The notes beneath the pieces are model-generated. The model made no database searches and was not told the DNA's origin. It was given only the letters and a program-made list of their open reading frames with translations. Below, piece after piece: positions 17,910-61,925 of a stretch of DNA of 64,000 nt. Source of the DNA: an uncultured Desulfobacterales bacterium (GTDB lineage Bacteria; Desulfobacterota; Desulfobacteria; Desulfobacterales; C00003060); assembly GCA_964502365.1 (NCBI GenBank), contig CAZCWQ010000001.1:8053-72052 (forward strand). The letters run 5' to 3'. Numbering within the stretch: position 1 is the first letter of the stretch; each line of letters starts with the position of its first letter. A program made the position numbers and the translations under genes.

Positions 17910-17913
17910 CTTG

Positions 17914-47733: not shown

Positions 47734-47801
47734 ATCGTGAACCAGCTCTCCGAAAAGCCATATTTCCATACAGTGCAGGTATCGCCTAGCAAAAAACACA
47801 A

Positions 47802-47860
47802 CTCTCTGCAATAGCCCAACCTTTTGAAATCCCGAAAGTTTTGTGATATTCTAAACAAAA
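47802..47860 (+). repeat. promoter-bearing intergenic repeat, copy A
   Basis: CTCTCTGCAAT..CCAACC..TTGAAA(47824-47829)-17 bp-TATTCT(47847-47852), with TG at the extended -10 position. Confidence 0.7.
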
Positions 47861-47934
47861 TTTTAGATTACCTAGTTTTGGACGGGCTCCTTACCTGCCG
47901 GGACAGGCCACGGTAGCTCACAAACATAAGCCAG

Positions 47935-48306
47935 ATGGTCTATCGCACCCTCGCAGATTTTGCCTTAATCGTTCACTTTGCATTTGTCGTCTTTGCGGTC
48001 TTTGGAGCATTCTTGGTGGTTAGATGGCACTGGCTGGTTTGGATGCATGTCCCATTGGCTCTCTGGGCTGCTGTAATGGAAATTACCGGCTGGTTTTGCC
48101 CTCTCACTCATCTTGAGTACTGGCTGCGTACCAAGAGCGTAATGACTGTGCAGGACATGGGGTTTGTGGAACAGTACCTCCTCCCTTTGCTTTATCCCAC
48201 AGGACTCACACGATGGTTGCAGGTTGTTCTTGGCGCCATTGTTCTCGGTATGAACGGCCTAATTTATTCGTGGGTACTATGGCGTCACCTCAGGGTTAGG
48301 ACCTGA
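47935..48306 (+). CDS. DUF2784-like membrane protein
   Basis: 123 aa with 3-4 TM helices. The motif ...GWFCPLT.LE.WLR is as I recall for DUF2784. Confidence 0.6.
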   Translation: MVYRTLADFALIVHFAFVVFAVFGAFLVVRWHWLVWMHVPLALWAAVMEITGWFCPLTHLEYWLRTKSVMTVQDMGFVEQYLLPLLYPTGLTRWLQVVLGAIVLGMNGLIYSWVLWRHLRVRT

Positions 48307-48587
48307 CCACCTTCAGCACTGGGATCCGTCCGCTACGATGTGACTTATTGAGACCACGCTTGGAACCCAACGATTATTCCAGCACAGCAACGGCAAGTAA
48401 GTGCTGCTTTCCAAGGCAGCAGCGGCGGTTTCGTTCTGGATCGATGAACGAGACCAAGTCCAACTGGCGGAAAGGCTGAGTCATGTGCCATAGACTTCTT
48501 GGTTGTGTTAGTTTTGGTAATTTGCGATTATTTGAGCCGGGCCAGAGTTATCCAAACGTCATGAGCAAATGAAAACAGGAGGGTAAT

Positions 48588-48857
48588 ATGAAACTGAACG
48601 TCAAAGCCCTAGTGTTGACGGCAGGCATTATCTGGGCAGGGACCGTTTTAGCGGTCGGTGTCGCAAACCTAATTTGGTCTGGGTACGGCACCATGTTCTT
48701 ACAGGTGGTAGCTTCGATCTATCCTGGTTATGATGCCACCCGTTCCATAGGTGCCGTGATAGTTGGAACTTTGTATGCCCTTGTTGATGGTGCCATTTTG
48801 GGATTGGTTTTGGGCGGGCTTTACAACTTGTTTGTGAGCAAGGGAAGCCCCGTCTAA
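48588..48857 (+). CDS. small membrane protein (3 predicted TM helices)
   Basis: Strong RBS (AGGAGGG). 89 aa, Gly/Ala-rich and hydrophobic. Confidence 0.55.
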   Translation: MKLNVKALVLTAGIIWAGTVLAVGVANLIWSGYGTMFLQVVASIYPGYDATRSIGAVIVGTLYALVDGAILGLVLGGLYNLFVSKGSPV

Positions 48858-48879
48858 ACACGTAACAATCAGAAAGCGT

Positions 48880-49345
48880 AGCCATTTGTGATATTACACT
48901 GCAATCACCAAGGATACACTCATCTGACTTCTCAAATATCTTGGCTCTGCGGTTTTCCACCACCGGTCAAGTCACTACGCCTTCCCTCGGCAATGCCCTT
49001 TTCAACAAACGCTCTATACCTTCGACGCGCAATCCATTGCCTATGATCGATACCCATTCAATAGCCTACCAATCCCTGTCCACCTTTCCCATAAGAGCGC
49101 TATGGCCAGTATACGGGTGTTTATCCAATGCCTTTATATCCCTTACAGTCCTGGCACGAATCGGATTCAGGTGAATGTGGCGTATGAGCTCCAAAAGATA
49201 GAGGTCTTCCTGGCATAAAATCGACTTGTATCTATTTTAAAAAGGATGCCCGCTGCGGCGGTGACGCCTGTTATAAGGAACCGCATATCCGGTCAACAGC
49301 CGCCTCATCACCGTAGCAATCGGCACATCACCTCTGTGGATGTGT
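48880..49345 (-). pseudogene. degraded Y1 (HUH) transposase, RAYT/IS200-like
   Basis: The minus-strand translation gives ...MRRLLTGYAVPYNRRHRRSGHPF*NRYKSILCQEDLYLLELIRHIHLNPIRA...DW*A... followed by a frameshift before RRSDLTGGG. The HUH-containing N-terminal part is missing. Confidence 0.7.
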
Positions 49346-49850
49346 GGAACTTTTCTGCATAAGAGTGATTTGTATTGCACATTATTGCCGTCATTAGAAT
49401 GAAAGCTACCAGACGTGTTATCGCATCCAATGCAAGTTAACTATTTAACATCGCTAGTATATTATTCCAAACGTACATGTTGGCATGGTTCTTGATACTA
49501 AGAATAAACAGAGCAATTAACGACACCCCTCTGGACAAGAGAAAGGATCTTAAAATGCGTAGCAAGAGTCATCTCAGCAGTCCAGAAATAATAAGCCAGA
49601 AGGGGCCGTCTCATTTCTTACTCCTGTACGTCATTGGTGGGGTCTTGGAGAAATAGGGCGGCAGCGTGAAAATAGACCGAGACACCAACGCGGTCGCCTT
49701 GAGCATTCCACAGAAAAAAAGGACTGCTTGCTGTGAAGAGTTAGAGGGAGTGATAGACGTCATAAAGCCGTTCATTCGTCTTCTCCCTTCCCACGATTGA
49801 TTCTTGCATTTGAAAAAGGCTCAATGGCCCTCCTTTGAAGTGAGGTTCCT

Positions 49851-50081
49851 ATGGAACCAAATGCAAGTCCTCTTTGTAAGTCGGGTGATAGAAATGCTTT
49901 GTGTCCTTATTATGACGCTTGTTTGGATCACGCTGTGAAACATCGTTGGCAATGTTGGAACTGCTCCGTCTGCCCTCACAGACTAAAGAAACAGTGCCTG
50001 AGCGACGCGCCAATTGTTAAAGATCCAAACCCCGAATATCATATTGCCTCAGAAATCCTACGACAGTTGGCTTCATCCTAA
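49851..50081 (+). CDS. small Cys-rich hypothetical protein
   Basis: 76 aa with GTGAGG 5 nt upstream of the start. Cys pattern is C...C.YY..C.......W.CW.C..C. No family recognised. Confidence 0.35.
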   Translation: MEPNASPLCKSGDRNALCPYYDACLDHAVKHRWQCWNCSVCPHRLKKQCLSDAPIVKDPNPEYHIASEILRQLASS

Positions 50082-50437
50082 ACTCTCAAACCCTTTACTC
50101 GTTCAAGTCTATGCTACAGGTCCTCTAGTACGTTCGCCCATCCTTTCCTGCCTTTTGGCTGTTGACATTATATCTGTCAGCCTGTTACCAGATCATAGCC
50201 TCGCATTCCAGCGCTCTTCACGCCTATAATGAAAAGCAGATTGGGTTTAACTGGATCGAGGGTTTCACTCAAGCCCCTCCTTTGTCAAGTGTGTAATTTT
50301 TTTCAGTCCAAGAGATATTCTTTTCACATTTTCGCTATGGCTTTTACCCTGAATTTTGCCTAACTAAATGGAAATATAGAGATACTCCGCTTGGCCTAGT
50401 TCTTGCTCATTCTAACTTTAAAAGGCATTGCTCAGCG

Positions 50438-50620
50438 TCATTGCTTTTCATTAGGGTCGGGGAGCATTCCTTCCTTATTATGATACCTTGGTGGGAACAG
50501 CTTAACTACTTCAGAAGGCTCCCCGGCCTTTCTTCCCTTCTTGTGGTATGAAACAAGAACGCCCATGGCGCGTCCAGCCTCAAAAGGAAGCCCCCGGCCC
50601 TTACGGGTACCGGACATCAT
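50438..50620 (-). CDS. hypothetical protein
   Basis: 60-aa basic ORF directly downstream of 50637-50951. No homology recognised. Confidence 0.2.
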   Translation of the reverse strand: MMSGTRKGRGLPFEAGRAMGVLVSYHKKGRKAGEPSEVVKLFPPRYHNKEGMLPDPNEKQ

Positions 50621-50636
50621 TCACGCACATGAATAG

Positions 50637-50951
50637 TTATGAACGCCCCTTTTTGTCTGTGACCGGAATCCCTCCAAGGCCACAATAGCCATAGTCTTCA
50701 TTCTTGTCCTTGTCAGGGTTAAGCCAACGCCAAAGCATACAATTCCGTCCGAGACAAAGTTCAATCCCAGGTTCCAGCATCTGTTGCTGCATTTGTTTCG
50801 CAATTAGCTTCACCGGACAGACTAGGCTTCCAACGCTGTTATGTTGAACGATCATAACAATACCTCCTTTTCCATCTCTTCTTAGGGCATGTCGCCGGAC
50901 GAGGCATATTCCGCCCTCTTTCTTAGCTGTAACACCCGCATCTAACCGCAT
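50637..50951 (-). CDS. hypothetical protein
   Basis: 104-aa ORF, possibly starting at an internal Met. No homology recognised. Confidence 0.25.
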   Translation of the reverse strand: MRLDAGVTAKKEGGICLVRRHALRRDGKGGIVMIVQHNSVGSLVCPVKLIAKQMQQQMLEPGIELCLGRNCMLWRWLNPDKDKNEDYGYCGLGGIPVTDKKGRS

Positions 50952-51066
50952 CTGACCCGCTAAGGCCAGTATTTTCCGCCCACAGAACGGGGGATCTCCT
51001 GCACCTCCATACCCCTGTGTATCCCTTTAGCAGAAATCGTGGATTCTGGGGGCGGTTTTCATAGAG

Positions 51067-51345
51067 TTAGTCAACTTCTTTGTCCGTGTCCAAACATTGA
51101 CGGTAACAGTCCTGCAATTTCCGATTGCACTCATCCTTACAGCTCCAGCGATCATCCTGATAACCTCTAAAATACTTCCTCCTCGGCATCTTTTCGCATG
51201 TTGAGGTACACAACGAGTGCCGGGATTGGCAGTTCTTAATACAATCCCGCTGTTCTTGTGTCCTAACGTGCCGGGTTGGCTGTGCCGACTGGGCTGCACA
51301 GCCAACAAAAAGAGCCAACAGTGTTAGAATTGCCAGTTTTCTCAT
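51067..51345 (-). CDS. small Cys-rich lipoprotein
   Basis: Signal peptide with lipobox LFVGC. The mature part has 8 Cys residues (CIKNC, CTSTC, CKDEC, CYRQC). Confidence 0.55.
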   Translation of the reverse strand: MRKLAILTLLALFVGCAAQSAQPTRHVRTQEQRDCIKNCQSRHSLCTSTCEKMPRRKYFRGYQDDRWSCKDECNRKLQDCYRQCLDTDKEVD

Positions 51346-51820
51346 GTCCCCCTCACTTTGTTTGCCTTAGGATTTGAAGCAATATAACACTATATGCAAA
51401 GCCCCCACACCAGAAATGCTAATGCATGGGCATGTGCAAAACGCCTAAGACCTATCCCAGCACAGGCTTGCCTGCTCTTGCCTTGTGCTCTCCTCTTGAC
51501 TCTTGCGCCACAATCGGCTAAAGAAAACGCATACTTGCAGTACCGCTGTTCCATTTCTTAAACCAACCATATACACAGGAAGTCATATGAACCTCAAGAT
51601 GTGCCTGCCTAGTTCGTGACAGTCGTCGTAAGTGCTGTTGGGAGTATAATCTTTGGATAAAACCAAATTCATCTACCAGGCAGATGCCATGAACTGAATA
51701 TCACGAACCCGTTTCTCACAGGAAGAAGTGGGCTTTTGAGTTTCATTTGAGATCATACCTTTTTGCAGAGTGTAATGGTGGCAAGAAATCTCCTATCAGA
51801 CAAAGATTCAAATTTAAGCG

Positions 51821-52861
51821 ATGAATAGAAAAGATGTCGTAAAACGCATAGTCTTGACGATCATATTTATTGCCATTGCGTACTTTTCGTTTTCATATCG
51901 ACCTGCCTCCAAATCTGTCACATATAGGGTAAACGATGAGCAGATAACAACAACCTCCGATGGAAGTGCTAAGTTTTTTGAATGGGTAGGGCTTTTCTGT
52001 CTAGTTGTCGCCGTTTGGTTTTGGCGAAAGGAACTAAAAGCAACAGGAATCGGCTTTTTACACGGCCCAGAGCCAGACATTGAACAGCAATCTCCCCAAG
52101 ACCTCCAAAAACGTGAAGAACTCCATATTCAACAAGAGGAAGAGAGTACATCCGATATTCCTGCGTCTCCAAATGTGAGTCCTGAATTGTCGAGTAGTAC
52201 CAGAACACTACATAACTTTGAAAAGCATAGAGATTCAATAATGCAAATGCTTCGTGAAAATCATGCCTTAAATGCAATGCACCTTGCATAGGTAATTGGT
52301 GCGACACGGTCGACAGTTACAACCTATATGGATATTTTAGTACGAGAGGGAAAAGTTCGTCGTGATGGCGACTATACCGATCAGCGTGGTCTCCGTAAGG
52401 CGGAACTATATACTCTAACTTCATTGTGGGAAAATGTAGCTATTGATATAGCTCGTAGCAATATTCGTGAAAAACACACAGTCACTTGGGAAAGACGTTT
52501 TGTTAGAATAGGAAACATGAATGATGTCGATGCCATTCTAAAAACCGAGGATTTTATAACTTTCTTAATTGAAGTAAAATTCGCTAGGAAGATTATTGAT
52601 CTCTCCAAAGTATTGTCAAGACTTTCAAGTACCGCCAAGAAATTTGAACCGACAAGCAAGGCTGTTATTATTTTCCTTGTCCTAGTAAGTCGGGATGACT
52701 CTCAGATTAAGAGTCTTGAAAACTATCTCGACAATACTACTTTCGACACAGGAAATATTGAAACTAGGTTTCTCTTACTCTCGACGGATCAACTTGAGGA
52801 AGAGTCTCAAAAGAGATTTGGAGAAAAGGTTTTTTGGCCCATGTTTTTGCAGGATAATTGA
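51821..52861 (+). pseudogene. membrane / winged-helix / PD-(D/E)xK-like protein gene interrupted by one in-frame TAG (52289-52291)
   Basis: ORFs 51821-52291 and 52328-52861 are in the same frame with no other stop between them. The TAG falls inside an HTH-like segment (LNAMHLA*VIGATRSTVTTYMDILVREGKV). The C-terminal part has D...EVK nuclease-like spacing. Confidence 0.55.
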
Positions 52862-52903
52862 TTATGCTGGTTATTTGATAGCCCTTTATAGAGCGGATTA
52901 AAA

Positions 52904-52970
52904 CTCTCTGCAATTCATCCAACCGTGTGAAATCCCTAAATGTTTGTGATATTCAAAACAAACCTTGCTT
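52904..52970 (+). repeat. promoter-bearing intergenic repeat, copy B
   Basis: CTCTCTGCAAT..CCAACC..GTGAAA(52927-52932)-17 bp-TATTCA(52950-52955). Confidence 0.7.
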
Positions 52971-53123
52971 GAGGCTAGCTATTTCCTGAGCCGTGATCGT
53001 ACCAGTGATCTCTACTTCTCCCTTTATAGATATTTGGCCTGTGTTACGCCTACTAAAGAATTTTCGATCATGTTCCGATTAGAATCATGCATTTTCGTTT
53101 ATCAATCGAGCAAGGAGAGCTAG

Positions 53124-53573
53124 ATGACTGCGCCTGATCATGTGACAATATCGCAACAGCCCGATGTGGCCACTCAACTGAGAGAATCACTTAAGAACAT
53201 TGGCGGACTTCTCCATTATTTGCCTGAAAACGAACAAAAAACCCTCCTCCAGTTGTTAGAAGACTGGCAAAACCCTGAACGAAGAAGGCTTCAAAGGAAA
53301 CTTTACTCCCTCCCCGTAGATTTTGCTGTAGGAAATCGGGCCTTCAGCGGTTTTGTTCGAGATATCAATGGAAGGGGGGTGCACATCGAACCTTCTGGAC
53401 GTTTCCATGTCGGTCAGGCAATCACGCTTAGCTTTCCTTTTCCCGGCCTGTCAAAGCCTATAAAGACACAAGGAGAGATTGTATGGACTGACAAGCATGG
53501 GTTTGGAGTAAAGCTGGCAATGCCAAACAAGTATCTAGAAGAATACGTCCAGAAGAAATTAGAACAGCTCTAG
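53124..53573 (+). CDS. PilZ domain protein
   Basis: RBS AAGGAGAG. It carries RRRLQR (RxxxR) and DINGRG (D/NxSxxG-like) c-di-GMP-binding-type motifs at the right spacing. Confidence 0.65.
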   Translation: MTAPDHVTISQQPDVATQLRESLKNIGGLLHYLPENEQKTLLQLLEDWQNPERRRLQRKLYSLPVDFAVGNRAFSGFVRDINGRGVHIEPSGRFHVGQAITLSFPFPGLSKPIKTQGEIVWTDKHGFGVKLAMPNKYLEEYVQKKLEQL

Positions 53574-53647
53574 CCCGCCCTCTGATGCCGCCAGTTGAAA
53601 CAGTAACCTCTATATATTGTATGTCAGCCCCTTACTCTAAAACTATA

Positions 53648-53710
53648 TGTTTATGCAATTCACCCAACCTATTGAAACGCCTAAATCTTTGTCATATACA
53701 AACTCAATCT
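53648..53710 (+). repeat. promoter-bearing intergenic repeat, copy C
   Basis: ATGCAAT..CCAACC..TTGAAA(53671-53676)-17 bp-TATACA(53694-53699). Confidence 0.65.
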
Positions 53711-53967
53711 GTGCTGGAATTGCTCGATTCCCAGATAGAAGTCATGGCAAGTAAAGCTGCAATTGTGACAGCATAGATACCGCCTCAATATGTTGTAGCA
53801 CTTCCATTTGCCCCACCTGGCCGTAAACCAGGATGCAGTGCTCTTCTGTGAATACAGTCTTTTCCGCCATGAGATACAGTGTTCACCCTATTGATTCTGG
53901 CACTATCGGCAATTACTATATTATTGTTGTCTCCATGTGAAAGCAACGTGACAGAGAGAGGTGTAGC

Positions 53968-54288
53968 ATGACAGAGTTTATCCGTGTTCCTCCACAGGAA
54001 GTTAGGCAGAAAGTTGAGTCTGGCTCGGCTCTGCTTGTCTGCGCATATGATGATGAGCAGAAGTTTAACCAGAATCATCTCGAAGGAGCGATTTCGCTGT
54101 CGGAATTCAAGTCTAGACTAGCGTCTTTACCCAAAGATCAAGAGATCATATTCTACTGTGCTTGACCCAAGGAAGCAAGTGCTGTCGGTCAGGCAGAAAC
54201 ATACACAAAGGCAGGACACCGGAACATAACCGTACTAGGTGGCGGGGTTCAAGCCTGGAAAAGAGCTGGATATATACTTGAATCGTAG
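53968..54288 (+). CDS. rhodanese-like protein with in-frame UGA (candidate selenoprotein, or pseudogene)
   Basis: The ORF stops at TGA 54163-54165 inside ...IIFYCA[TGA]PKEASAVGQAETYTKAGHRNITVLGGGVQAWKRAGY. The same frame stays open to TAG 54286-54288, giving a complete ~106-aa rhodanese fold. Confidence 0.5.
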
Positions 54289-54365
54289 CTGAGACAATCC
54301 GTCCCCGTTTCAAGAATAATCACACATTAGGTCCATCGCCGTGAACAAAGGGAGATACTAGAACA

Positions 54366-54614
54366 ATGCGTGTACGTGTTACCGTGAAGAAAGGAAAATG
54401 TCTGGGTGGAATCCACAAACTTGGGCAGGCGTTTACGGTTGGGTGGACAACCCCTGAAGGAATGTGCTTGGGTGCCTGGAATGCCATATCTCCAAGTGTG
54501 ATTACACTGCTTTGCGGCGGGAATTTTCCATGGGAAAAACAGGCGGGTGTTACGACAATTCACTGTCCCGATCCCAAAGGCATAACATTTGAACTTAGAC
54601 GTATCGAAGAATGA
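54366..54614 (+). CDS. TIGR04076-like small protein
   Basis: RBS AAGGGAGA. 82 aa with ...G.C.GAW.AI.P....L..GG.FPW.......CPDP.....FE(L/I)RRI resembles the TIGR04076 family as I recall it. Confidence 0.55.
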   Translation: MRVRVTVKKGKCLGGIHKLGQAFTVGWTTPEGMCLGAWNAISPSVITLLCGGNFPWEKQAGVTTIHCPDPKGITFELRRIEE

Positions 54615-54682
54615 AGTACTAAAACCAATTATTAAGTATTCCTTAAAGGAGTGGGTTGCATTGACTTAGTCAAAAGTAGAGG

Positions 54683-54745
54683 TTGCTGAAATTCAACCGA
54701 CTTTTTGAAATCCTGAAGTCTTTGTGATACACAAAGTAAGTCTTA
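54683..54745 (+). repeat. promoter-bearing intergenic repeat, copy D
   Basis: TTGAAA(54705-54710)-17 bp-TACACA(54728-54733). It contains the perfect palindrome TTGTGATACACAA. Confidence 0.65.
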
Positions 54746-54797
54746 GTGCTCGCTGGTCTACAATAGCCCACAACTGGACAAGAAAGGGGTAGTTTCG

Positions 54798-55061
54798 ATG
54801 GAGAAGCCGAAGCAATCTTTGTGCGATACAGTTGATGACTCAGAAAAAGCCAACGAAGAGTATTTTTCTATGCTTGGGAGGTCTCTTTTCAGTTTCATTG
54901 AACAACATAAGGATCAGCTTCCCTGCATTAGCGTGGAAGATGCCAAGGCAAGGGGCCTGTGTAAGCTGAATGATCACTGCTGGAAGGAGGAGGGCGGAGT
55001 CAAGAGTTGTACCTGGGTACGACACACAGATGGCAAGCTGTACACCCTCACTCCCGAGTAA
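54798..55061 (+). CDS. hypothetical protein
   Basis: 87 aa with RBS AAAGGGG. No family recognised. Confidence 0.4.
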   Translation: MEKPKQSLCDTVDDSEKANEEYFSMLGRSLFSFIEQHKDQLPCISVEDAKARGLCKLNDHCWKEEGGVKSCTWVRHTDGKLYTLTPE

Positions 55062-55326
55062 GTCGTTCAAGAAAAGTCTCGCTGCATGCCATAGCTTCAG
55101 GCAAATTTTGGCATATAATCTAAGCGCTGTTCCGATCTCCATGCCAACAACTCCACCGTATTGAAATGGATTGATCATATTACGCGCTCCGTATAACGCA
55201 TTATGCGTAAAACAAAGCTGAGGTTAAGAACTTTCTTGAGGAATACATGACTGATATTTAACGGTGTGAGACTCTAATGCATGTAACCAACTAATATCAA
55301 AAGAGAAATCAAATTTGTTACGTGTA

Positions 55327-55375
55327 CCTGCAATTTTTGAAATTCCCAAAATTTTGTGATATTTAAATACACTGT
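55327..55375 (+). repeat. promoter-bearing intergenic repeat, copy E (shorter upstream arm)
   Basis: CCTGCAAT-TTTTGAAA(55337-55342)-17 bp-TATTTA(55360-55365). Confidence 0.65.
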
Positions 55376-55446
55376 GAATTGTCTCTTTGCATGCCTCAGA
55401 CAGTCTTATTGACTCTGTCATACGTGAGTATTTAGGGAGAACCGAT

Positions 55447-56100
55447 TTGGCGAAGGTTACGGTCTTTGTTTTGTGGTTTCTTTTATGGAGCAGTCCAACA
55501 GCAGCAGGTTCGTCCGAACAACCGGCATCGGCCAAATCCGTTAGTATTCTTCCAAACTCATCTGAGTCGAAAGAAATCGAGCGACCATCCGTTGAAATGA
55601 ACTTCCAGGATGTCGACATCCGTGATTTCGTGAGCTACGTCAGTAAGGTAACGAGAACGAATTTTATCCTTGGTCCCAATGTTAAGGGACGCGTCACAAT
55701 AGTCTCGGCCACAAAGGTCCCCGTGGATGAGGTTTTCAGCTTTTTTCAGTCGGTTCTTGAGGTTCACGGATACACGACCGTGGAGGCTGGAAGCGTGGTG
55801 AAGATCGTTCCGTCAGCAACGGCTCGGGGCAAGAGCGTTGAAACAGGGTTCAGAGAGGAATTAAGAACCGCAGGAGACAAGTTTGTTACGCAAGTGATCC
55901 ACCTCAACCATCTCGGCCTAGACGACACGAAAAGCCTGTTGACTCCCCTTGTATCCGAAAACAGTGTTATCGTCTCTCACCACCGATCAGGGATGCTGAT
56001 TATCACAGATTCCCTTTCAAACATTCAACGGTTACAACAGATCATAAAGGCCATTGATGTGCCAAAGGCTCTAGAAGAGATCTCGGTCGTTGGGGAATGA
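55447..56100 (+). CDS. secretin N-terminal domains only (GspD-like N0+N1, no secretin barrel)
   Basis: TTG 55447 lies 7 nt after GGGAGA. It has a signal peptide, an N0-like block (VEMNFQDVDIRDFVSYVSKVTRTNFIL...) and an N1 block (TQVIHLNHLGLDDTKSLLTPL...IITDSLSNIQRLQQIIKAID), then stops. Confidence 0.6.
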   Translation: MAKVTVFVLWFLLWSSPTAAGSSEQPASAKSVSILPNSSESKEIERPSVEMNFQDVDIRDFVSYVSKVTRTNFILGPNVKGRVTIVSATKVPVDEVFSFFQSVLEVHGYTTVEAGSVVKIVPSATARGKSVETGFREELRTAGDKFVTQVIHLNHLGLDDTKSLLTPLVSENSVIVSHHRSGMLIITDSLSNIQRLQQIIKAIDVPKALEEISVVGE

Positions 56101-56165
56101 GGACACCGCAACGCTCGCGAACGAGAGGGGAAATTCCACGTTTCCGTGACATATGGGTGCATGAA

Positions 56166-56459
56166 ATGACAATTAGAGTAAGATCCTTTGCTGTCCTTCT
56201 TCTCACGGCTTGCCTATTGTGTCTTGCTCCGCTCGCTGTCCATGGTCAGCACGTGCGGCCACTAAGAGAACCAATAGTGATCAAAGTAATCCGCCTAGAT
56301 TACGCTGATGCAGAGCAGCTTGCCTCTGTTTTAAGTCCTCTGCTGACAAGAGATGGCCGGATGGTGGCCTATTCGCCCACCAATACCCTTATCATTAGAG
56401 ACAGGAAATCCCTTGTTGAGCAATTGGTCAGAGTAATAAAAGGGGTGAGTGATTCCTAA
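56166..56459 (+). CDS. small secreted protein with one secretin-N (N1-type) domain
   Basis: Signal peptide, then IKVIRLDYADAEQLASVLSPLL...NTLIIRDRKSLVEQLVRVIKG. The start is uncertain (56097 or 56166). Confidence 0.55.
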   Translation: MTIRVRSFAVLLLTACLLCLAPLAVHGQHVRPLREPIVIKVIRLDYADAEQLASVLSPLLTRDGRMVAYSPTNTLIIRDRKSLVEQLVRVIKGVSDS

Positions 56460-56672
56460 CTCTACCAAGGACCAACCACCAGGGCATGCCCCTGTTGCTT
56501 TTGATACCAACACTTGGTACTTTGCTTCACACTTCGAGGCTTACAAAACTCAACCACAAGACCTAACGTCCTGAAATCACACAACTCACGTGATTGCATA
56601 ATTTTTGCATTTATTATAATCTCATTGTGCCATTGCATCACCGAGAAAATCCTTTTGAAGAGGAGAGAAGAC

Positions 56673-57566
56673 ATGAGACGGCATCTTGTTGTCATATCCT
56701 TGAATTACTGTTTGGTTTGTCTTTCCATGGCCGTTTTGTTGGTAGGTTGCGGTGGTGGAAGCAACGGTGACGGAAACGACCTTGCCGCCAGTAGTTCAGG
56801 AGCGCTAGGGACCTTTTCTTTGAACGTTACTGATGCCAAGCCCCTACTCCCTGATAACACTGAAAAAGTTTTAATTACCTTTGAAGAAGTGGATGTTCAC
56901 AAGACAGGTGAAGGATGGACTTCCCTGCCTTTGGCCCAAGAACCATATAAGATCGACTTGCTCCAGTTCCAAGAAGGCAAAACCACGGAGCTGGTTCCTC
57001 CGGTTAGTCTCGAATCTGGAAAATACACGCAGATCCGTATCGTGGTGAGCAGTGCAGAATTGAGAACCAACGCGGCGGCCTATTCAGTGACTGTTCCATC
57101 GGCAAGTATAAAGACAGACACTCAGTTTGACTTTGAGATGAAAGGTGGTGGCGCCGTACATGTCACCGTCGATTTCGACCTAAGCCAATCTATCGTTGTG
57201 ACCGGGCAGCAGCCCCCGTCGTATACGCTCAAACCGGTCTTTCACATAAATGAGACGTTAGAGGCAGCTACCATTTACGGTGAGATTGCTGAAGACACGT
57301 TCGTGACTAACAATTCTGGCCAAGCGATTGTCACTGTGGTCTGGGACGAAAATGCTGACGGGGATGTCAATTTCGACGATGAGATTTACACCCAAGTCGT
57401 GGTAACCAAGGATGACCCTGCGGAATTTCGGATTTTCTGGCTGGTTCCTGAGGAAGCCCACATCGTGCAAGTTGATTTGGACGGAAATCAAGGCCTTGAA
57501 TTTAAAGAAACAGTGTCATCCAATGATCTTCCAGCAGGTGCTCTGTACGACCTGGGTTCATTTTAG
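56673..57566 (+). CDS. DUF4382-like lipoprotein
   Basis: ATG 56673 follows GAGGAGAG. Lipobox LLVGC. The pattern ...LNVTDAK...I..V.VH......W..L......IDLL......L....L..G.YTQIRI.V... is typical of DUF4382. Confidence 0.65.
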   Translation: MRRHLVVISLNYCLVCLSMAVLLVGCGGGSNGDGNDLAASSSGALGTFSLNVTDAKPLLPDNTEKVLITFEEVDVHKTGEGWTSLPLAQEPYKIDLLQFQEGKTTELVPPVSLESGKYTQIRIVVSSAELRTNAAAYSVTVPSASIKTDTQFDFEMKGGGAVHVTVDFDLSQSIVVTGQQPPSYTLKPVFHINETLEAATIYGEIAEDTFVTNNSGQAIVTVVWDENADGDVNFDDEIYTQVVVTKDDPAEFRIFWLVPEEAHIVQVDLDGNQGLEFKETVSSNDLPAGALYDLGSF

Positions 57567-57719
57567 ATTTTGAGGACATTCTTGCCCCCGACCTAATGCA
57601 ATAAAAATTGGCTCAATAAAGGGCACCAGAGCCTAATGCAAGTTCTCTCCACCCGTCCCTTGACTTAAATCTGACACTCTATTATCAAACCGATAGACGA
57701 GCAAAGGAGATTCTATGCT

Positions 57720-58292
57720 ATGAGAAGAAGATGTTCACAGGTGCTATTATTGGTAACTATAAGCCTGTTTCTAGTGAGTTGTGCTACCCCAAAGGGAGTC
57801 ACAAAGCAGGAACAAAGAGATTATGTCCTGAAAATGAAAGACGAAACACTGGCCAGGCTATATGCGCAAAAGCCAGAAACAAAAGCCATGATAAAGAAGG
57901 CTGCGGGGTACGGAGTTTTTAGCAACATAGGTACGCACATATTTCTTCTCGCCGGTGGTAGTGGTTATGGGGTTGTCATTGACAATGCCACAGCGCACAA
58001 AACGTATATGAAAATGAGATCAGTAGGTTTCGGCTTAGGGATAGGCGTAAAGGACGTCAGGGCAGTTTTCATATTCAAGAACAAGAGAGTGTTAAATGAA
58101 TTTGTAGAGAAAGGCTGGGAATTTGGAGGGCAGGCTGACGCTGCTGCGAAATCCGGGGACAAAGGTGCCGCTGTTGGTGGTGAAGCATATGTTGAGACTG
58201 GCATTGCTATTTATCAGCTTACAGAAGCTGGTGTTGCTCTCCAGGCAACAATTGCCGGAACGAAGTATTGGAAGGACAAAGATTTGAACTAG
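57720..58292 (+). CDS. SYLF/Ysc84-like (DUF500) lipoprotein
   Basis: Lipobox FLVSC. GYGVFSN...GGSGYGVV...GFGLGIG...GWEFGGQADAAA pattern matches the family. Confidence 0.7.
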   Translation: MRRRCSQVLLLVTISLFLVSCATPKGVTKQEQRDYVLKMKDETLARLYAQKPETKAMIKKAAGYGVFSNIGTHIFLLAGGSGYGVVIDNATAHKTYMKMRSVGFGLGIGVKDVRAVFIFKNKRVLNEFVEKGWEFGGQADAAAKSGDKGAAVGGEAYVETGIAIYQLTEAGVALQATIAGTKYWKDKDLN

Positions 58293-58323
58293 TGACTGTG
58301 ACAGACACTTTAAAGGAGGAAAC

Positions 58324-58506
58324 ATGAAAATCAACATTGAAAAGAGTCTGGTGGAATTCGAGCCGGAAAGCGACACAGAGACAGCTATGGTTGAAGCCCT
58401 GTGGAGACTGATCGTCGACTGCGCGAAGTTTAATAAGAAGCTTGTGCCAGTCGGAGAATACATACCACAAAAGAAAAACCTTGCACGATTTGTTATTGAG
58501 GACTGA
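58324..58506 (+). CDS. hypothetical small protein
   Basis: 60 aa with RBS AAGGAGGAAAC directly upstream. Confidence 0.4.
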   Translation: MKINIEKSLVEFEPESDTETAMVEALWRLIVDCAKFNKKLVPVGEYIPQKKNLARFVIED

Positions 58507-58740
58507 CCTCACGTCGGGCCTCTCATGATCCTTAGAGTAAAGAGCATTGACACAGGTGTGAAAGGAGAAGGAAGCCTATGGCTCACCGTACCCTCAGTCT
58601 CAGCGAACCACTTTATCAGCCTTGTCCCAATAGGCGACGGACTAATGCTCGTTCGTAAGCAATAAGAAAAGAAAGGAGGGTTGGCGTGAAGCTTTCGGGC
58701 CTTCATCTACCCTTGACATACCAGTTGGTTATTCTTCTTC

Positions 58741-59862
58741 TCAACGGTAAAGGGCTCGATACTTTTTCCGCTTTTCTTTTTGCCATCTTGGACAGAGTGA
58801 AGGTTTGCCCTTCATCACCAACTGAAGACATGCATCGCATTTAGGGCTACATTTAAGGATTGATCTATCCCGTCCTTGTCGGGCCTTGAGGGGCCATTCA
58901 GGATCCACCCAGAGCATGCGTGCCAGCCCTATGAGGTCCGCCTTTTTCTCTTTCAAGATTGATTCTGCCAGTGCAGGGGTTGATATCCGACCAGCGGTGA
59001 TAACAGGTACCTTCACGTCTTTCTTGATAAAACCAGCCAAGGAAACCATGTAGCCGGGTCTACGGGATTTCTTGATAGTCTCGGGAAGGAAAAACGACTC
59101 ATAGGTTCCGCCCATGACCGAGATATAAGCTATACCCGCTTCCTCTAGAGCCTTTGCCAAAACAGCCGACTCCTCAACATGAAGTCCATCGGGGAGCCAT
59201 TCATCAGCCATGAAACGATACCCTACAGGGAAATCGCCCACCAAGTCCTTGACACGCTTGAGTACTTCGAGTGGAAACCTGATTCGATTCTCTATTGCCC
59301 CTCCATAGTCATCTTCCCTTCTGTTGGTCCTTGGAGATACGAACTCGGCAAGTAGATACCCTGTTCCTCCGTGGAGCTCCACCAAATCAAATCCGGCTTT
59401 CTTAACCCTCAATGCGGCTTTTGCGTATTGCTTTTGGATGGTCGTGATCTCTTTCTTTGTGAGCGCACGGGGCATGTTGTTGAAAGCCGGAACTGCTGAG
59501 GGTGCAACGGGTTCAGCGACATGGGCAAAACGCCCAGCATGATTGATCTGGAGGGCTGCCAGGGTGTTTTCCCGCTTAATAACGCCGGCCAGGCTTTCCA
59601 GGCCTTTCAGGTAACGGTCATGGTCGCAACGAATGGTCCTAGGTGAACCACTTCCCTTGGGGGTTATGCTAGAGTTCTCGACCACTATCAATGCTGCGCC
59701 GCTTTGTGCCATGAGTTTGTAATGATCCAGCAGCAACACAGAAGTCTTTCCACCAAGAGCAGCATACCCTAGATAGAGCGGAGCCATGGTAATACGATTC
59801 TTAAGCTTCAAGCCGTTCAGTTTTAGTGGTCGAAAAAGGTTAGGATAAAAGGCTTTTTTCAT
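58741..59862 (-). CDS. NADH:flavin oxidoreductase (Old Yellow Enzyme family)
   Basis: NRITMAPL, QINHAGR and HGGTGYLLAEFVSPRTNRREDDYGG motifs. The start is taken at MKKAFYPNLF. Confidence 0.85.
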   Translation of the reverse strand: MKKAFYPNLFRPLKLNGLKLKNRITMAPLYLGYAALGGKTSVLLLDHYKLMAQSGAALIVVENSSITPKGSGSPRTIRCDHDRYLKGLESLAGVIKRENTLAALQINHAGRFAHVAEPVAPSAVPAFNNMPRALTKKEITTIQKQYAKAALRVKKAGFDLVELHGGTGYLLAEFVSPRTNRREDDYGGAIENRIRFPLEVLKRVKDLVGDFPVGYRFMADEWLPDGLHVEESAVLAKALEEAGIAYISVMGGTYESFFLPETIKKSRRPGYMVSLAGFIKKDVKVPVITAGRISTPALAESILKEKKADLIGLARMLWVDPEWPLKARQGRDRSILKCSPKCDACLQLVMKGKPSLCPRWQKEKRKKYRALYR

Positions 59863-60394
59863 CTTCACACCCCTGTCAATTTCTTTCATTGTAACAGCCA
59901 TGAAATATACCAAGTTCTAATAGATCTCAATAGCAGATCGGGGGGATTGATAGATTCTTTCAACAACTGAACCGCTTCTTGATTTTTATATCTCCAGGCA
60001 GGTATTACAAGATATACGGCGACATCCTGTGTAGTCTGGCATGCAATAGACTGTCAAGGGGCTTTCGCTGCAATGGTCAATCCTTGTTGCCGACGCGGCG
60101 GGGGTGGATATTTACGCTTCGGAATTCTCACTGTCACGTGCGTATGATGGCAGGTAATCTTTGATCTGCAAAATCCAGCATCGCGGGCCTCAGAATGATG
60201 ATATCTATAGTCCCGTCACGACAAGATAGCCGTCTAGGATCGCCCCAAAAAGGCAACCAGACACCCTTCGGGACCTTGCCAATTCGGCTGCGGTTGTGAT
60301 TTACATTTAAGATCTCAAAAAACGTTAGAATCAACGGTGTGGCAAGATATCGAACCCATTGTTGTGTTCCCCGTAACCATCAAGGAGGAGTAAA

Positions 60395-61264
60395 ATGTTT
60401 AGACGTATCCCAATCCTTGTGACATCGGCCTTGGTGGTGAACGTTTTTCTCGTCTCCCAAACGTTTGCCGGCGGAAATCCCACCCAACTCACTACGTTCT
60501 TTAATCAACTATGGCTCAAAGCTGTTGTGTCAATCGAGCAGGCAGTCGGGTCAAACAAATATCAAGCTATCGGGACCGGCTTTCTCGTCGGTACCAAGAA
60601 TAAGCACATAATTTTGGTAACAGCTAAGCACGTAGTAACTGACAAGCAGGGCAACACGAAGAAAGGCCTCGCCTATCTAATGAATTTAAAGGACGAGAAA
60701 AGCAAGGTTGTTACAGACGCAAAGATGAAAGAACTCGGATTAGGTGATTGGTTTATTGCTGAAGATGCGGACGTTGCGGCCCGATTCACTGGTCGTTTTA
60801 AGACATCCGACATCGCTACAATAGACCCTGAGATGTTTCTCAAAAAAGAATCAATCCAGGCTGGTTCGCCAGCTCTAACCCTTGGCTTTCCGACGGGCCT
60901 ACGATCAAAAGAGTATGCCATACCGGTTGTCAGGAGGGCCATGGTTGCTATAGCGGATGCGAAGCGTTTTATCGTAGATGGCTTCGTTTTCCCTGGAAAT
61001 AGCGGTGGACCTGTGGTGTACATGCCGGCTTTTCAGATTGGCAATATTGCGTTAAATAACTACATTCAAGAGCAGCGATTGATTGGCCTGGTCTCCTCTT
61101 ACATTCCTTATATGGATACTGCAATCAGTTTGCAGACAAAACGCCCTCGCATTATTTTCGAAGAAAATTCCGGTCTGGCAAATGTAGTACCTGCTGACGC
61201 AATCCTGAAACTGATCGAACGTGAGGATATGCAAGCACTCGACAAGGTGATTCCCTCAGGGTGA
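60395..61264 (+). CDS. trypsin-like (S1) serine protease, secreted
   Basis: RBS AAGGAGGAG and a signal peptide. Triad context is GTGFLV...TAKHVV, DVAA and GNSGGPV. Confidence 0.75.
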   Translation: MFRRIPILVTSALVVNVFLVSQTFAGGNPTQLTTFFNQLWLKAVVSIEQAVGSNKYQAIGTGFLVGTKNKHIILVTAKHVVTDKQGNTKKGLAYLMNLKDEKSKVVTDAKMKELGLGDWFIAEDADVAARFTGRFKTSDIATIDPEMFLKKESIQAGSPALTLGFPTGLRSKEYAIPVVRRAMVAIADAKRFIVDGFVFPGNSGGPVVYMPAFQIGNIALNNYIQEQRLIGLVSSYIPYMDTAISLQTKRPRIIFEENSGLANVVPADAILKLIEREDMQALDKVIPSG

Positions 61265-61267
61265 TGC

Positions 61268-61335
61268 TCCCTGCAATCCATTCAACAAATTGAACTCCCG
61301 ATATTTTTGTGATACACAAAAGAAACCTTGACGGG
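61268..61335 (+). repeat. promoter-bearing intergenic repeat, copy F
   Basis: CCCTGCAAT..TTCAAC..TTGAAC(61290-61295)-17 bp-TACACA(61313-61318). It carries the palindrome TTGTGATACACAA and a downstream AAACCTTG as in copy B. Confidence 0.65.
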
Positions 61336-61662
61336 GCTTCCCTACTTGCCAAATGGAAGTCTTGGCTTTCAAATCAACACTATTGCCTGGCCAGACTGAC
61401 CCACCACATATTGATTATCCACCGGTTGCCTTGACTGAGAACTCCTTTCTATGGCCTTAATTTTGCGCTTTCTTTTCACTGGTCTAAAGTATCGACCAAC
61501 CCTCCAGAGAACAGAGGATCATATTGATGTTCAATGGCTCTCCGGCCTTTTTCTGTTTTTCCACCACGGCCATTCATATCGCTTGACTCCAACCCAAGTC
61601 GTTTAGTATAGAAAACCCAGTTAGGTTCGTTCCGAAACAACCAACACAATCTGGAAATCTCG

Positions 61663-61902: not shown

Positions 61903-61925
61903 CGCGATTTTGTGAGGATCTTTCC

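What the first reader, a model, noticed from the sequence alone, without database searches (positions are those of the whole stretch)
47802..61335. Six same-orientation copies of a ~60-bp repeat that embeds a complete promoter, each heading a block of unrelated small genes
**Copies and shared structure.**
- Copies lie at 47802-47860, 52904-52970, 53648-53710, 54683-54745, 55327-55375 and 61268-61335.
- They align as (C)TGCAAT - CCAACC-like - TTGAAA - TCCC.AA..TTTGTGA - TA...A - AAA(C/G)AAA.
- In all six the -35-like hexamer (TTGAAA, GTGAAA or TTGAAC) is separated by exactly 17 bp from a TAnnnA hexamer.
- That hexamer is preceded by TGn, an extended -10, in five of the six copies; copy C has TCA.
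- Conservation extends through the spacer and about 20 bp on both sides. So this is a mobile or duplicated element rather than convergent promoters.
- Copies D and F contain the perfect palindrome TTGTGATACACAA.

**Context.**
- All copies face the same way.
- They precede functionally unrelated genes: DUF2784, PilZ, the UGA-rhodanese plus TIGR04076, an 87-aa ORF, the secretin-N proteins, and the Cys-rich pair.
- By eye the region appears more AT-rich than the rest; I did not compute this.
- It also contains a dead Y1 transposase.
- The organisation is cassette-like, but I see no integrase and no attC-like R''/R' (RYYYAAC/GTTRRRY) boxes.
Basis: seen in the sequence. Interest (0 to 1): 0.75.

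Follow-up and report, generated by a model that had tools for sequence, protein, structure and literature searches.

The report
Reused promoter-like repeat at gene-cassette boundaries
A roughly 70-base promoter-like DNA repeat sits in front of six unrelated small gene blocks in a variable part of an uncultured metal-reducing bacterium's genome, and in related environmental genomes it marks the points where gene blocks have been swapped; this fits the known but mechanistically unexplained class of 'mobile promoters'.

Summary
Six same-strand copies lie at the stated coordinates. A degenerate pattern finds 6 matches against 0 expected. Profiles built from the copies find nothing else in the 64 kb.

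The element is about 62-70 bp: CTGCAAT box, CCAAC, TTGAAA, 17-bp conserved spacer, TG-n-TAnnnA, A-rich start, AtCTT. It is not the housekeeping promoter. It matches no Rfam family and no plasmid or phage record. It does not fold like an attC site.

The motif scan of 185,579 species genomes gave only 5 isolated hits in unrelated taxa. About ten further distinct copies turned up on metagenome contigs. There the element precedes the same DUF2784 and PilZ modules, and also unrelated genes.

Homology between contigs repeatedly starts or stops at the element's edges. Some copies look like mosaics of two others.

Best reading: a portable promoter/operator module, a diverged "putative mobile promoter" family. 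It heads accessory-gene cassettes and serves as the place where cassettes are exchanged. Promoter activity is inferred only. Five of six copies lack the canonical T at the last -10 position, and leaders can be long.

An integron-like site-specific system is not excluded, but no recombinase gene was found in the window.

The parts
47799..47865 (+). Copy A. CTGCAAT box at 47806-47812, TTGAAA at 47824-47829, TG-n-TATTCT ending at 47852. It has a 1-nt deletion between box and -35 relative to the family. It heads DUF2784 (ATG 47935).
   Evidence: 53.4 bits. It is the only copy flagged by the sigma-70 scan. The element is conserved upstream of orthologous DUF2784 in L075 and L076-L081.
47935..48857 (+). 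Module A genes: DUF2784 (47935-48306) and an 89-aa membrane protein (48588-48857).
   Evidence: Pfam DUF2784 at 108 bits. The 89-aa protein scores 58.5 bits to NCBIfam holin_4, below its cut-off. The same two-gene module is 86-92% identical on L075-L081.
48870..48905 (+). A', a degenerate seventh copy (CAGAAA-N16-..TTTGTGATAT). It is immediately followed by another CTGCAAT box at 48899-48905. Homology to the L075/L076 modules stops at this point.
52901..52973 (+). Copy B. It heads the PilZ gene (53124-53573).
   Evidence: 67.6 bits. Pfam PilZ. The B-type element plus leader plus PilZ recur on L082-L084 and L090.
53646..53717 (+). Copy C. It has TCA instead of TGn before TATACA. It heads a rhodanese with an in-frame TGA (53968-54290) and TIGR04076 (54366-54614).
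   Evidence: 55.9 bits. Rhodanese and TIGR04076. Homology between the window and L082 ends exactly at the end of this copy's TGCAAT.
54679..54748 (+). Copy D. Box variant CTGAAAT; palindrome CTTTGTGATACACAAAG. It heads an 87-aa Cys-rich ORF (54798-55061).
   Evidence: 54.3 bits
55324..55369 (+). Copy E, a short variant. The CTGCAAT box is joined to TTGAAA by 3 nt. It heads the secretin-N / DUF4382 / Ysc84 genes (55387-58292).
   Evidence: 22.8 bits. Pfam.
61265..61335 (+). Copy F. It starts 4 nt after the stop of the Trypsin_2 gene. Palindrome TTTTGTGATACACAAAA. It heads two paralogous Cys-rich 79-aa ORFs (61663-61902 and 61926-62165) and TusA (62256-62480).
   Evidence: 60.7 bits

Best explanation
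**What it is**

The repeat is a portable promoter/operator module of about 62-70 bp. Its consensus is CTGCAATc.A.CCaAC...TTGAAA.cCc.AAAT.TTTGTGATAttcAAA..aaAtCTt. It is a diverged family of the kind described as 'putative mobile promoters'.

**How it most likely works**
- Each copy sits at the 5' boundary of a small accessory-gene cassette in a variable chromosomal region. The host is an uncultured bacterium rich in multiheme cytochromes.
- Each copy most likely starts rightward transcription a few bases after the TAnnnA hexamer. The promoter parts would be TTGAAA as -35, a 17-bp spacer and an extended -10 TG.
- The strongly conserved non-hexamer blocks are the CTGCAAT box, CCAAC, the CC..AAAT spacer, the TTTGT..ACAAA dyad over the -10/+1 region, and AtCTT. 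They probably bind one or more shared regulators, so the cassettes would be co-regulated.
- The element is the only sequence shared between cassettes. It also acts as the place where cassettes are exchanged between genomes: crossovers fall at its edges or inside it and leave mosaic copies.

**Shown versus inferred**
- Shown: the repeat family itself; its restriction to this region of the window; its presence in other environmental genomes in front of the same and of different genes; and breakpoints coinciding with it.
- Inferred: promoter activity, regulator binding, and the recombination mechanism.
For: **Family and specificity**
- Six copies against 0 expected. No other profile hit in 64 kb.
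- None of the 5 single-copy hits in 185,579 species genomes looks related.
- True relatives on metagenome contigs score 35-70 bits. Chance hits to the search pattern score 19 bits or less.

**Promoter-like anatomy and placement**
- The alignment is ungapped, with TTGAAA-17-TAnnnA, TG before the hexamer and an A-rich start.
- All copies lie in intergenic DNA on the same strand as the next gene, both in the window and on L075-L084 and L090.
- Conservation stops about 15-20 nt after the hexamer. This is expected for a promoter and not for a structured leader RNA.
- No Rfam match even at E<=1. No significant fold.

**Reuse in front of unrelated genes**
- DUF2784, PilZ, rhodanese/TIGR04076, secretin-N and Cys-rich/TusA genes in the window.
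- A PKD protein on L090, a B12-radical-SAM gene after a degenerate short copy on L082, and a response regulator on L030.

**Boundary behaviour**
- The DUF2784 module is 99.7-100% identical on L076-L081. It has at least four different upstream contexts that diverge within about 7 nt of the CTGCTAT box.
- Window-to-L090 homology for the PilZ module starts at 52903, the 5' edge of the element. Window-to-L083/84 homology starts at 52899.
- Window-to-L082 homology ends exactly at the end of TGCAAT of the next copy.
- L038 and L070 share only the 70-nt element, at 91% identity.
- L090 and L063 share the upstream context plus the element, and diverge just after TGATATTC.
- The L083 copy is F-like in its 5' half and B-like in its 3' half.

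**Precedent**
- Families of 50-100-nt promoters shared by non-homologous genes are documented. They are especially numerous in Geobacter uraniireducens, and the largest family is in Desulfurivibrio alkaliphilus (PMC3488235).
Against: - No transcription data were available.
- Five of six window copies, and most metagenome copies, have A rather than the near-invariant T at the last -10 position. The generic sigma-70 scan therefore accepts only copy A.
- Distances from the hexamer to the first credible start codon are long in several cases: 267 nt for C, about 345 nt for F, about 590 nt on L030 and about 740 nt on L090.
- Within the window, pairwise identity is at most 82% over 45 nt and 76-78% over 64-66 nt. 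This is below the 80%-over-50-nt criterion used to define mobile promoters.
- Two of the 'different upstream contexts' of the DUF2784 module are themselves mobile-element insertions: a group II intron and an IS91-family element. Part of the breakpoint clustering may therefore reflect insertion-site preference rather than cassette exchange.
- A close DUF2784 ortholog (L073, 86% aa identity) keeps CCAACCTTTTGAAA but has a different 26-nt spacer and -10 segment.
- No regulator and no recombinase were identified.
Confidence: 0.55

Rival explanations
1. Regulon only. The copies are ordinary, vertically inherited promoters of a stress or sulfur-handling regulon. They are kept similar over about 60 bp by dense binding sites for one or more shared regulators. 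One candidate is a dimer on the weak dyad TGCAAT-N11-ATTGAA overlapping -35. Another is a factor on TTTGT..ACAAA over -10/+1. On this view nothing is mobile, and breakpoints at the element simply mark where selection stops.
For: - Several downstream genes share a sulfur or cysteine theme: rhodanese with FYCA-TGA (47.9 bits to rhodanese_LYCAU), TIGR04076, two Cys-rich 79-aa proteins plus TusA, and a Cys-rich 87-aa ORF.
- The element is conserved upstream of orthologous DUF2784 and PilZ genes in other genomes.
- Fixed spacing of most blocks is typical of protein-binding architecture.
Against: - About 45 of 70 positions are conserved. That is far more than a typical operator plus hexamers.
- L038 and L070 share the 70-nt element at 91% identity with unrelated DNA on both sides.
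- Modules that are 99.7-100% identical sit in four or more contexts, with breaks within about 7 nt of the box.
- Mosaic copies exist.
- The distance between the CTGCAAT box and -35 changes in A, E and L030 (-1, about -10 and -7 nt). A rigid dimer site would not tolerate this.
- PilZ, secretin-N and DUF4382 do not fit the sulfur theme.
Confidence: 0.2
2. Recombination site of an unrecognised cassette-exchange system, functionally integron-like. The CTGCAAT box would be the crossover core for a site-specific recombinase encoded elsewhere. The promoter-like part would be a cargo feature that makes each cassette self-expressing.
For: - Independent homology breakpoints fall in or next to the box:
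  - the left end of the DUF2784 module on L077, L080 and L081;
  - the window-to-L082 break after TGCAAT of copy C;
  - the window-to-L076 break at the box at 48899-48905;
  - the L090 break at a CTGAAAT box.
- The box behaves as a separable module whose distance to the promoter core varies.
- Array-like layout: same-orientation repeats, small unrelated genes, slightly lower GC.
- A group II intron is inserted in the opposite orientation exactly at the element's 5' edge on L076/L078. From my own knowledge, this recalls class C introns that target integron attC sites.
Against: - Other breakpoints are not at the box. L090/L063 diverge after the -10. L083 switches parent in the spacer. The right end of the L076-L081 module lies 65 nt past A' at ...GGCAAG.
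- No recombinase, integrase or transposase domain was found in any ORF of 200 aa or more in the 64 kb.
- No inverted-repeat or hairpin architecture.
- Only a handful of junctions were examined.
Confidence: 0.12
3. A non-autonomous transposable element (MITE, REP/REPIN mobilised by a RAYT, or an IS200/IS605-type PATE), or a transcribed RNA element (leader or sRNA), rather than a promoter.
For: - A decayed RAYT-like fragment lies inside the region at 49069-49353 (-).
- A short TTTGT(G)..(C)ACAAA inverted repeat is present in most copies.
- Contigs often break near the element.
Against: - No terminal inverted repeats or target-site duplications.
- Every copy in the window and on the contigs with a called downstream gene points toward that gene. 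REPINs, by contrast, occur as inverted pairs.
- The small dyad has a variable loop (3-10 nt). Folds are not better than shuffles, with z from +1.2 to -2.4.
- No Rfam hit even at E<=1.
- Conservation lies mostly upstream of any plausible transcript start.
- The RAYT fragment scores only 21 bits against a cut-off of 80.
Confidence: 0.05

Closest known systems
Putative mobile promoters (PMPs; Matus-Garcia, Nijveen & van Passel 2012, PMC3488235)
   Same: - A 50-100-nt promoter-region sequence shared by genes whose coding regions, and whose upstream neighbours, are not homologous.
- Several copies per genome, and copies shared between genomes.
- The paper names Geobacter uraniireducens (27 families) among the richest genomes and Desulfurivibrio alkaliphilus as holding the largest family (93 copies).
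   Different: - The window copies are more diverged than the PMP threshold: at most 82% over 45 nt and 76-78% over 64-66 nt.
- All six are clustered in 13.5 kb instead of being dispersed.
- Here the element also coincides with synteny breakpoints and shows mosaic copies. That study did not analyse such features.
- PMP is a descriptive class with no defined mechanism.
Integron attC sites / CALIN cassette arrays
   Same: - Same-orientation short repeats separate small, unrelated, mostly same-strand genes in a slightly AT-richer region.
- Cassettes are found in different contexts between genomes.
- No integrase nearby, as in CALINs.
- An RYYYAAC-like heptamer occurs in 4 of 6 copies.
   Different: - No complementary GTTRRRY partner and no imperfect hairpin.
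- The repeat lies at the 5' end of the cassette and travels with the downstream gene. attC lies at the 3' end.
- The repeat looks like a promoter, whereas most integron cassettes are promoterless.
- Breakpoints are not at a single position.
Promoter-carrying intergenic repeats (Neisseria Correia/CREE elements, ERIC and similar MITE-like repeats; from my own knowledge, and cited in PMC3488235)
   Same: Short intergenic repeats that can supply promoter elements to neighbouring genes and that spread within a lineage.
   Different: - Those elements have terminal inverted repeats and target duplications, and they occur in both orientations.
- This element has neither feature, and every observed copy points toward the downstream gene.
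REP/REPIN elements with RAYT transposases
   Same: - Short intergenic repeats.
- A RAYT-like pseudogene fragment lies within the same region.
   Different: - REPs are 20-40-nt hairpins, usually in inverted pairs.
- This element is about 70 nt, has no stable hairpin, and has one orientation.

Membership tests
Putative mobile promoter family (PMC3488235 definition) | Promoter regions align over more than 50 nt with at least 80% identity | tested here: inconclusive
   - Within the window: A-B 82% over 45 nt; B-F 76-78% over 64-66 nt; the other pairs 47-76%. This is below the threshold.
- Between metagenome contigs the criterion is met: L038-L070 91% over 70 nt.
Putative mobile promoter family (PMC3488235 definition) | Downstream CDSs and upstream CDSs of the copies are not homologous to each other | tested here: met
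   - The Pfam families downstream are different in each case: DUF2784, PilZ, Rhodanese, Secretin_N, none, none.
- The upstream neighbours are also different: DnaJ-domain protein, MarR-like split ORF, PilZ, TIGR04076, 87-aa ORF, Trypsin_2.
Sigma-70-type promoter | -35 TTGACA-like hexamer, 16-18-nt spacer, and a -10 TATAAT-like hexamer with A at position 2 and T at position 6 | tested here: inconclusive
   - The -35 TTGAAA (5 of 6 matches), the 17-nt spacer, TA at -12/-11 and the extended -10 TG are present.
- The last hexamer base is A in 5 of 6 copies, so the consensus scan accepts only copy A.
- Activity is not testable with these tools.
Integron attC site | R'' (RYYYAAC) and R' (GTTRRRY) boxes that pair, with L''/L', in an imperfect hairpin of about 57-141 nt | tested here: not met
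   - RYYYAAC-like heptamers occur in A, B, C and F, but with no complementary GTTRRRY (reading).
- DNA folds of 86-nt windows are not better than shuffles, except weakly for F (z from +1.2 to -2.4).
Integron | IntI tyrosine recombinase with attI and Pc next to the array | tested here: not met
   - Pfam scans of all 33 ORFs of 200 aa or more, plus many smaller ones, found no Phage_integrase or other recombinase domain.
- The array may continue beyond base 64000, so this covers the window only.
MITE | Terminal inverted repeats and a target-site duplication flanking each copy | tested here: not met
   - The repeat finder shows no inverted partners for the element.
- The flanks of L038 and L070 show no duplication.
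REP/REPIN | 20-40-nt imperfect palindrome forming a stable hairpin, often in inverted pairs, with a cognate RAYT | tested here: not met
   - Only a 5-7-bp AT-rich dyad with a variable loop is present.
- All copies have one orientation.
- The RAYT-like fragment is decayed: 21 bits against a cut-off of 80.
Any Rfam RNA family (riboswitch, leader, sRNA) | Match to a covariance model | tested here: not met
   - No hit at gathering score in the 64 kb.
- No hit at E<=1 in 47500-62500.

The most novel reading that the evidence does not exclude
The CTGCAAT box would be the crossover core of a previously undescribed gene-cassette exchange system. It would work like an integron but differ in four ways:
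- the sites lie at the 5' end of each cassette;
- each site carries its own promoter;
- the sites lack hairpin structure;
- the sites are used by a recombinase encoded elsewhere in the genome.

This would explain why modules that are 99.7-100% identical sit in many contexts, with breaks in or next to the box.
Probability: 0.12. Interest if true: 0.8.

Novelty: new member of a known kind. Interest (0 to 1): 0.5.

Why it matters
**If the promoter reading is right**
- This is a clear natural example of a ready-made promoter/operator module being reused to wire newly acquired accessory genes into one control circuit. The lineage is uncultured and rich in multiheme cytochromes.
- The same 70 bp would also serve as the seam along which gene blocks are swapped between strains.
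- This gives a concrete, testable case for how 'mobile promoters' spread. That mechanism has remained open since the class was described.

**If the box is a true recombination core**
- It would be a new kind of cassette system.

**Practical use**
- The profile built here separates true copies (35 bits or more) from chance hits (19 bits or less). It could be used to chart such islands in metagenomes.

Tried and rejected
1. **attC / integron.** I looked for R''/R' boxes and for a hairpin. R''-like heptamers occur in 4 of 6 copies, but there is no R' partner, no significant fold and no integrase. Rejected as membership.
2. **RNA element.** Rfam at gathering score and at E<=1 gave nothing. Conservation lies mostly upstream of the putative start.
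3. **MITE / REP.** No inverted copies or terminal repeats.
4. **Generic housekeeping promoter.** There is no copy in the first 47 kb, despite many operons there.
5. **Phage or plasmid origin.** No blastn hit for copy B in 72,556 plasmids or 50,697 phage records. The 15 viral-contig pattern hits are single and score 19 bits or less.
6. **Species-genome scan.** Only 5 chance-like hits in unrelated taxa. Neither the source species nor close relatives with the element appear among the 185,579 representatives.
7. **Literature search by sequence strings.** Only irrelevant hits.
8. **Other sigma factors and regulators, by eye** (sigma-54, sigma-28, sigma-32, ECF, MerR-type spacing, CRP/FNR, Fur, LexA, CIRCE, NifA UAS, dif/Xer). 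None fits all copies. These comparisons rest on consensus sequences recalled from memory and are leads only.
9. **Six-frame Pfam scan of the minus strand of 48300-52950.** No hits.
10. **TIGR04076 homolog contexts (L085-L089).** No element is present there. Homology is limited to the gene itself, so this added no junction data.
11. **Terminal inverted repeat for the DUF2784 module.** An apparent TIR between CTGCTATCAACCCACCC and the reverse complement of the right end was not supported by any other copy. Dropped.

Full report
**1. The observation**

The six copies are at the stated coordinates, all on the + strand.
- The repeat finder returns a five-copy family of 59-64 nt and a six-copy 29-nt core.
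- A degenerate pattern covering -35 to -10 matches exactly these six sites with up to 2 mismatches. Dinucleotide shuffles give 0.00 expected.
- nhmmer profiles built from the copies score them at 29-64 bits. Nothing else in the 64 kb scores above 7 bits.
- The stated details all hold in an ungapped alignment anchored on TTTGTGATA. These are the 17-bp spacing, TGn before TAnnnA in five copies with TCA in copy C, and the palindrome TTGTGATACACAA in D and F.
- Copy E is a short variant, with the CTGCAAT box joined to TTGAAA by 3 nt.
- A seventh, degenerate copy (A') lies at about 48870-48905.
- GC is 0.46 in 47.8-61.4 kb against 0.49 upstream, so the AT bias is real but slight.

**2. Anatomy**

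Fourteen full-length family members (five from the window, nine from metagenome contigs) give this consensus:

CTGCAATc.A.CCaAC...TTGAAA.cCc.AAAT.TTTGTGATAttcAAA..aaAtCTt

- Conservation starts 2-4 nt before the CTGCAAT box. It fades about 15-20 nt after the TAnnnA hexamer.
- The box-to-core distance changes in A (-1 nt), E (about -10) and L030 (-7). The core itself is never gapped. The box therefore behaves as a separable module.
- A short dyad TTTGT(G)-N3-10-(C)ACAAA spans the -10/+1 region in most copies. Its loop length varies, and folds are not better than shuffles.
- A weak dyad TGCAAT-N11-ATTGAA overlaps the -35. It reaches the ATTGAA form in 5 of the 14 aligned copies, so it is only a lead.

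**3. What it is not**

- No Rfam family matches, at gathering score over the 64 kb or at E<=1 over the region.
- It does not fold like an attC site. It lacks an R' partner, although an RYYYAAC-like heptamer occurs in four copies.
- There are no inverted partners, terminal repeats or target duplications.
- It is not the housekeeping promoter. The first 47 kb holds multiheme cytochromes, an RND efflux pump, two-component systems and methionine genes, and contains no copy.
- No ORF of 200 aa or more in the window has a recombinase, integrase or transposase domain.
- Copy B has no blastn match in the plasmid or phage collections.

**4. Distribution elsewhere**

- A 20-base-specified pattern, scanned over one genome for each of 185,579 species, gave only five isolated hits in unrelated taxa.
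- A slightly relaxed form of that pattern (M and S widened to N) scanned over metagenome contigs gave 50 loci.
- Profile scoring separates true relatives (L030, L032, L038, L063, L070 at 35-57 bits) from chance hits at 19 bits or less.
- I then followed the proteins encoded after copies A and B, which gave more copies.
  - DUF2784 orthologs at 81-88% aa identity (L075, L076-L081) all carry the element at the same distance upstream.
  - PilZ orthologs at 97% aa identity (P0055) on L083/L084 carry it upstream; L082 begins inside the element. L090 (P0157, a member of the same 90%-identity cluster) carries it too.
  - L090 holds a second copy, 743 nt upstream of a PKD-domain gene.
- Two controls lack the element.
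  - DUF2784 on L074 (68% aa identity) has none. L073 (86%) keeps CCAACCTTTTGAAA, but a different 26-nt segment replaces the spacer and -10.
  - TIGR04076 genes that are 80-90% identical at the DNA level (L085-L089) sit in other contexts without the element. Homology there is limited to the gene.
- The source organism is only represented by identical Logan contigs from SRR14802572 and by a 75,653-nt NCBI contig that I could not retrieve.

**5. Boundary behaviour**

This is the main new result.

*DUF2784 module*
- The module (element, DUF2784, 89-aa gene, A') is 99.7-100% identical over about 955 nt on L076-L081.
- Its upstream DNA differs between contigs, and the sequences diverge within about 7 nt of the CTGCTAT box.
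- On L076/L078 the upstream DNA is a group II intron on the opposite strand. Its GTGCG 5' end abuts the element (Rfam RF01999 at 116 bits, RF00029 at 58 bits).
- On L077 the upstream DNA is an IS91-family element (Y2_Tnp, 99 bits).
- On L080 and L081 the upstream DNA is unrelated sequence.
- Downstream, three contexts diverge at the same nucleotide after ...GATGGCAAG.

*PilZ module*
- The window matches L083/L084 over 52899-53659 and L082 over 52934-53659. The match ends exactly at the end of TGCAAT of copy C.
- After that point L082 continues with a different, short element and a B12-radical-SAM gene.
- Window-to-L090 homology runs from 52903, the 5' edge of copy B, to 53623. L090 then has a CTGAAAT box followed 28 nt later by TTTCTGATA, a degenerate copy.

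*Other comparisons*
- L038 and L070 share only the 70-nt element, at 91% identity.
- L090 and L063 share about 65 nt of upstream context plus the element, and diverge just after TGATATTC.
- The L083 copy is F-like in its 5' 22 nt (3 differences from F, 7 from B). It is B-like from the spacer onward.

*Reading*
- The element is flanked by breakpoints on either side and can be mosaic.
- This fits exchange within or at the edges of the element.
- It fits less well with a single fixed crossover point, although the CTGCAAT box is over-represented among the few junctions seen.

**6. Function**

*For a promoter*
- TTGAAA-17-TAnnnA with an extended -10 TG.
- An A-rich start region.
- Intergenic position and constant orientation toward the next gene in every case examined.
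- Loss of conservation soon after the hexamer.

*Against a promoter, or uncertain*
- The last hexamer base is A in five of six copies and in most relatives. The generic scan therefore accepts only copy A.
- Leaders are long in several cases.
- I have no expression data.

*Regulation*
- The many conserved non-hexamer positions suggest shared regulator binding.
- Four cassettes have a sulfur or cysteine flavour:
  - a rhodanese with FYCA-TGA, matching NCBIfam rhodanese_LYCAU at 47.9 bits;
  - TIGR04076;
  - two Cys-rich paralogs followed by TusA;
  - a Cys-rich 87-aa ORF.
- Co-regulation is therefore plausible.

**7. Comparison with known systems**

- The closest described kind is the 'putative mobile promoter': 50-100-nt promoter sequences shared by non-homologous genes. 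They are reported as numerous in Geobacter uraniireducens, with a 93-copy family in Desulfurivibrio alkaliphilus (PMC3488235).
- The present family meets the non-homologous-neighbour criterion. Within the window it falls below the 80% identity threshold; between metagenome contigs it meets it.
- It resembles an integron array in layout, but fails the attC and integrase tests.
- It differs from Correia, ERIC or REP-type repeats by lacking inverted repeats and by its strict orientation.

**8. Verdict**

- The repeat is real and non-random, and it is not a generic promoter.
- It is best filed as a new, diverged member of the mobile-promoter kind, with the added observation that it marks cassette seams.
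- Confidence in the promoter-plus-exchange-seam reading is 0.55.
- A pure regulon reading gets 0.2, a site-specific cassette system 0.12, and a transposable or RNA element 0.05.
- Interest is moderate at 0.5. The kind is known but its mechanism is not, and this case offers unusually clear junction evidence that could be extended.

Noticed in passing
L076:14-1846 (- strand); L078:1-94: A group II intron (RF01999 at 116 bits, RF00029 at 58 bits, with an RVT_1/GIIM ORF) lies on the strand opposite to the DUF2784 module. Its GTGCG 5' end directly abuts the 5' edge of the element. From my own knowledge, this recalls class C introns that target integron attC sites in reverse orientation.
   Followed up: partly
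L077:2-409: The ORF just upstream of the DUF2784 module is the C-terminal part of an IS91-family rolling-circle transposase (Pfam Y2_Tnp, 99 bits). The right boundary of the L076-L081 module is ...GGCAAG. From my own knowledge, this ends in CAAG, one of the IS91 target tetranucleotides.
   Followed up: no
window 49069-49353 (-): A stop-interrupted fragment resembles a REP-associated tyrosine transposase (..RRHRRSGHPF*NRYKSILCQEDLYLLELIRHIHLNP..). NCBIfam REP_Tyr_transpos gives 21 bits, E=2e-4, well below its cut-off. Pfam finds nothing.
   Followed up: partly
window 53968-54290 (+): The rhodanese gene has an in-frame TGA in the motif FYCA-TGA-P. It matches NCBIfam 'rhodanese-related (seleno)protein' rhodanese_LYCAU (47.9 bits, below cut-off). 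It is probably a selenoprotein. No SECIS check was done.
   Followed up: partly
window 51821-52861 (+): Two adjacent ORFs (156 and 177 aa) read as one protein across a single in-frame stop. The protein has a MarR-type winged helix (23 bits) followed by a motif that looks like PD-(D/E)xK (DAIL..EVKF). It may be a pseudogene or a read-through gene. It lies directly upstream of copy B.
   Followed up: no
window 48390-48576: The window carries about 186 nt between DUF2784 and the 89-aa gene that are absent from the otherwise collinear modules on L075-L081. The 89-aa protein weakly matches NCBIfam holin_4 (58.5 bits, below cut-off).
   Followed up: no
window 54334-54607 versus L085-L089: The TIGR04076 gene is 80-90% identical at the DNA level to genes on other contigs. 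There it sits between an ArsP-type permease and a NUDIX gene. Homology starts about 32 nt before the ATG and ends at the stop, so the gene alone has been moved between contexts.
   Followed up: partly
window 61396-61409; L078:~1080; L079:~890; L076:~2835: A second short motif (CTGACCCACCACAT / CTGACTGACCAAAT, followed by CTTG) recurs about 90 nt downstream of the element in several otherwise different leaders. The leaders after copies A, B and F and on L030 also share TTGGACGGGCTCC..CCTGCC-like stretches. This may be a conserved leader feature.
   Followed up: no
window 61663-62480 (+): Two paralogous 79-aa Cys-rich proteins (..TTKC...FxCLS....CxVERAxG..PVLF...) are followed by a TusA-family sulfurtransferase (47 bits). 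Together with the rhodanese and TIGR04076, this suggests a sulfur/selenium-handling theme in the island.
   Followed up: partly
window 17900-21050: Repeat families D2, D4 and D7 from the repeat finder lie inside multiheme cytochrome genes with 8-12 paired CXXCH motifs. They appear to be coding repeats of heme-binding modules, not non-coding elements.
   Followed up: partly
L001 (= window 56797-61300): A Logan contig from SRR14802572 is 100% identical to the window and ends inside copy F. Several metagenome contigs also end within 60-300 nt of an element. This may mean that assemblies break at the element.
   Followed up: no
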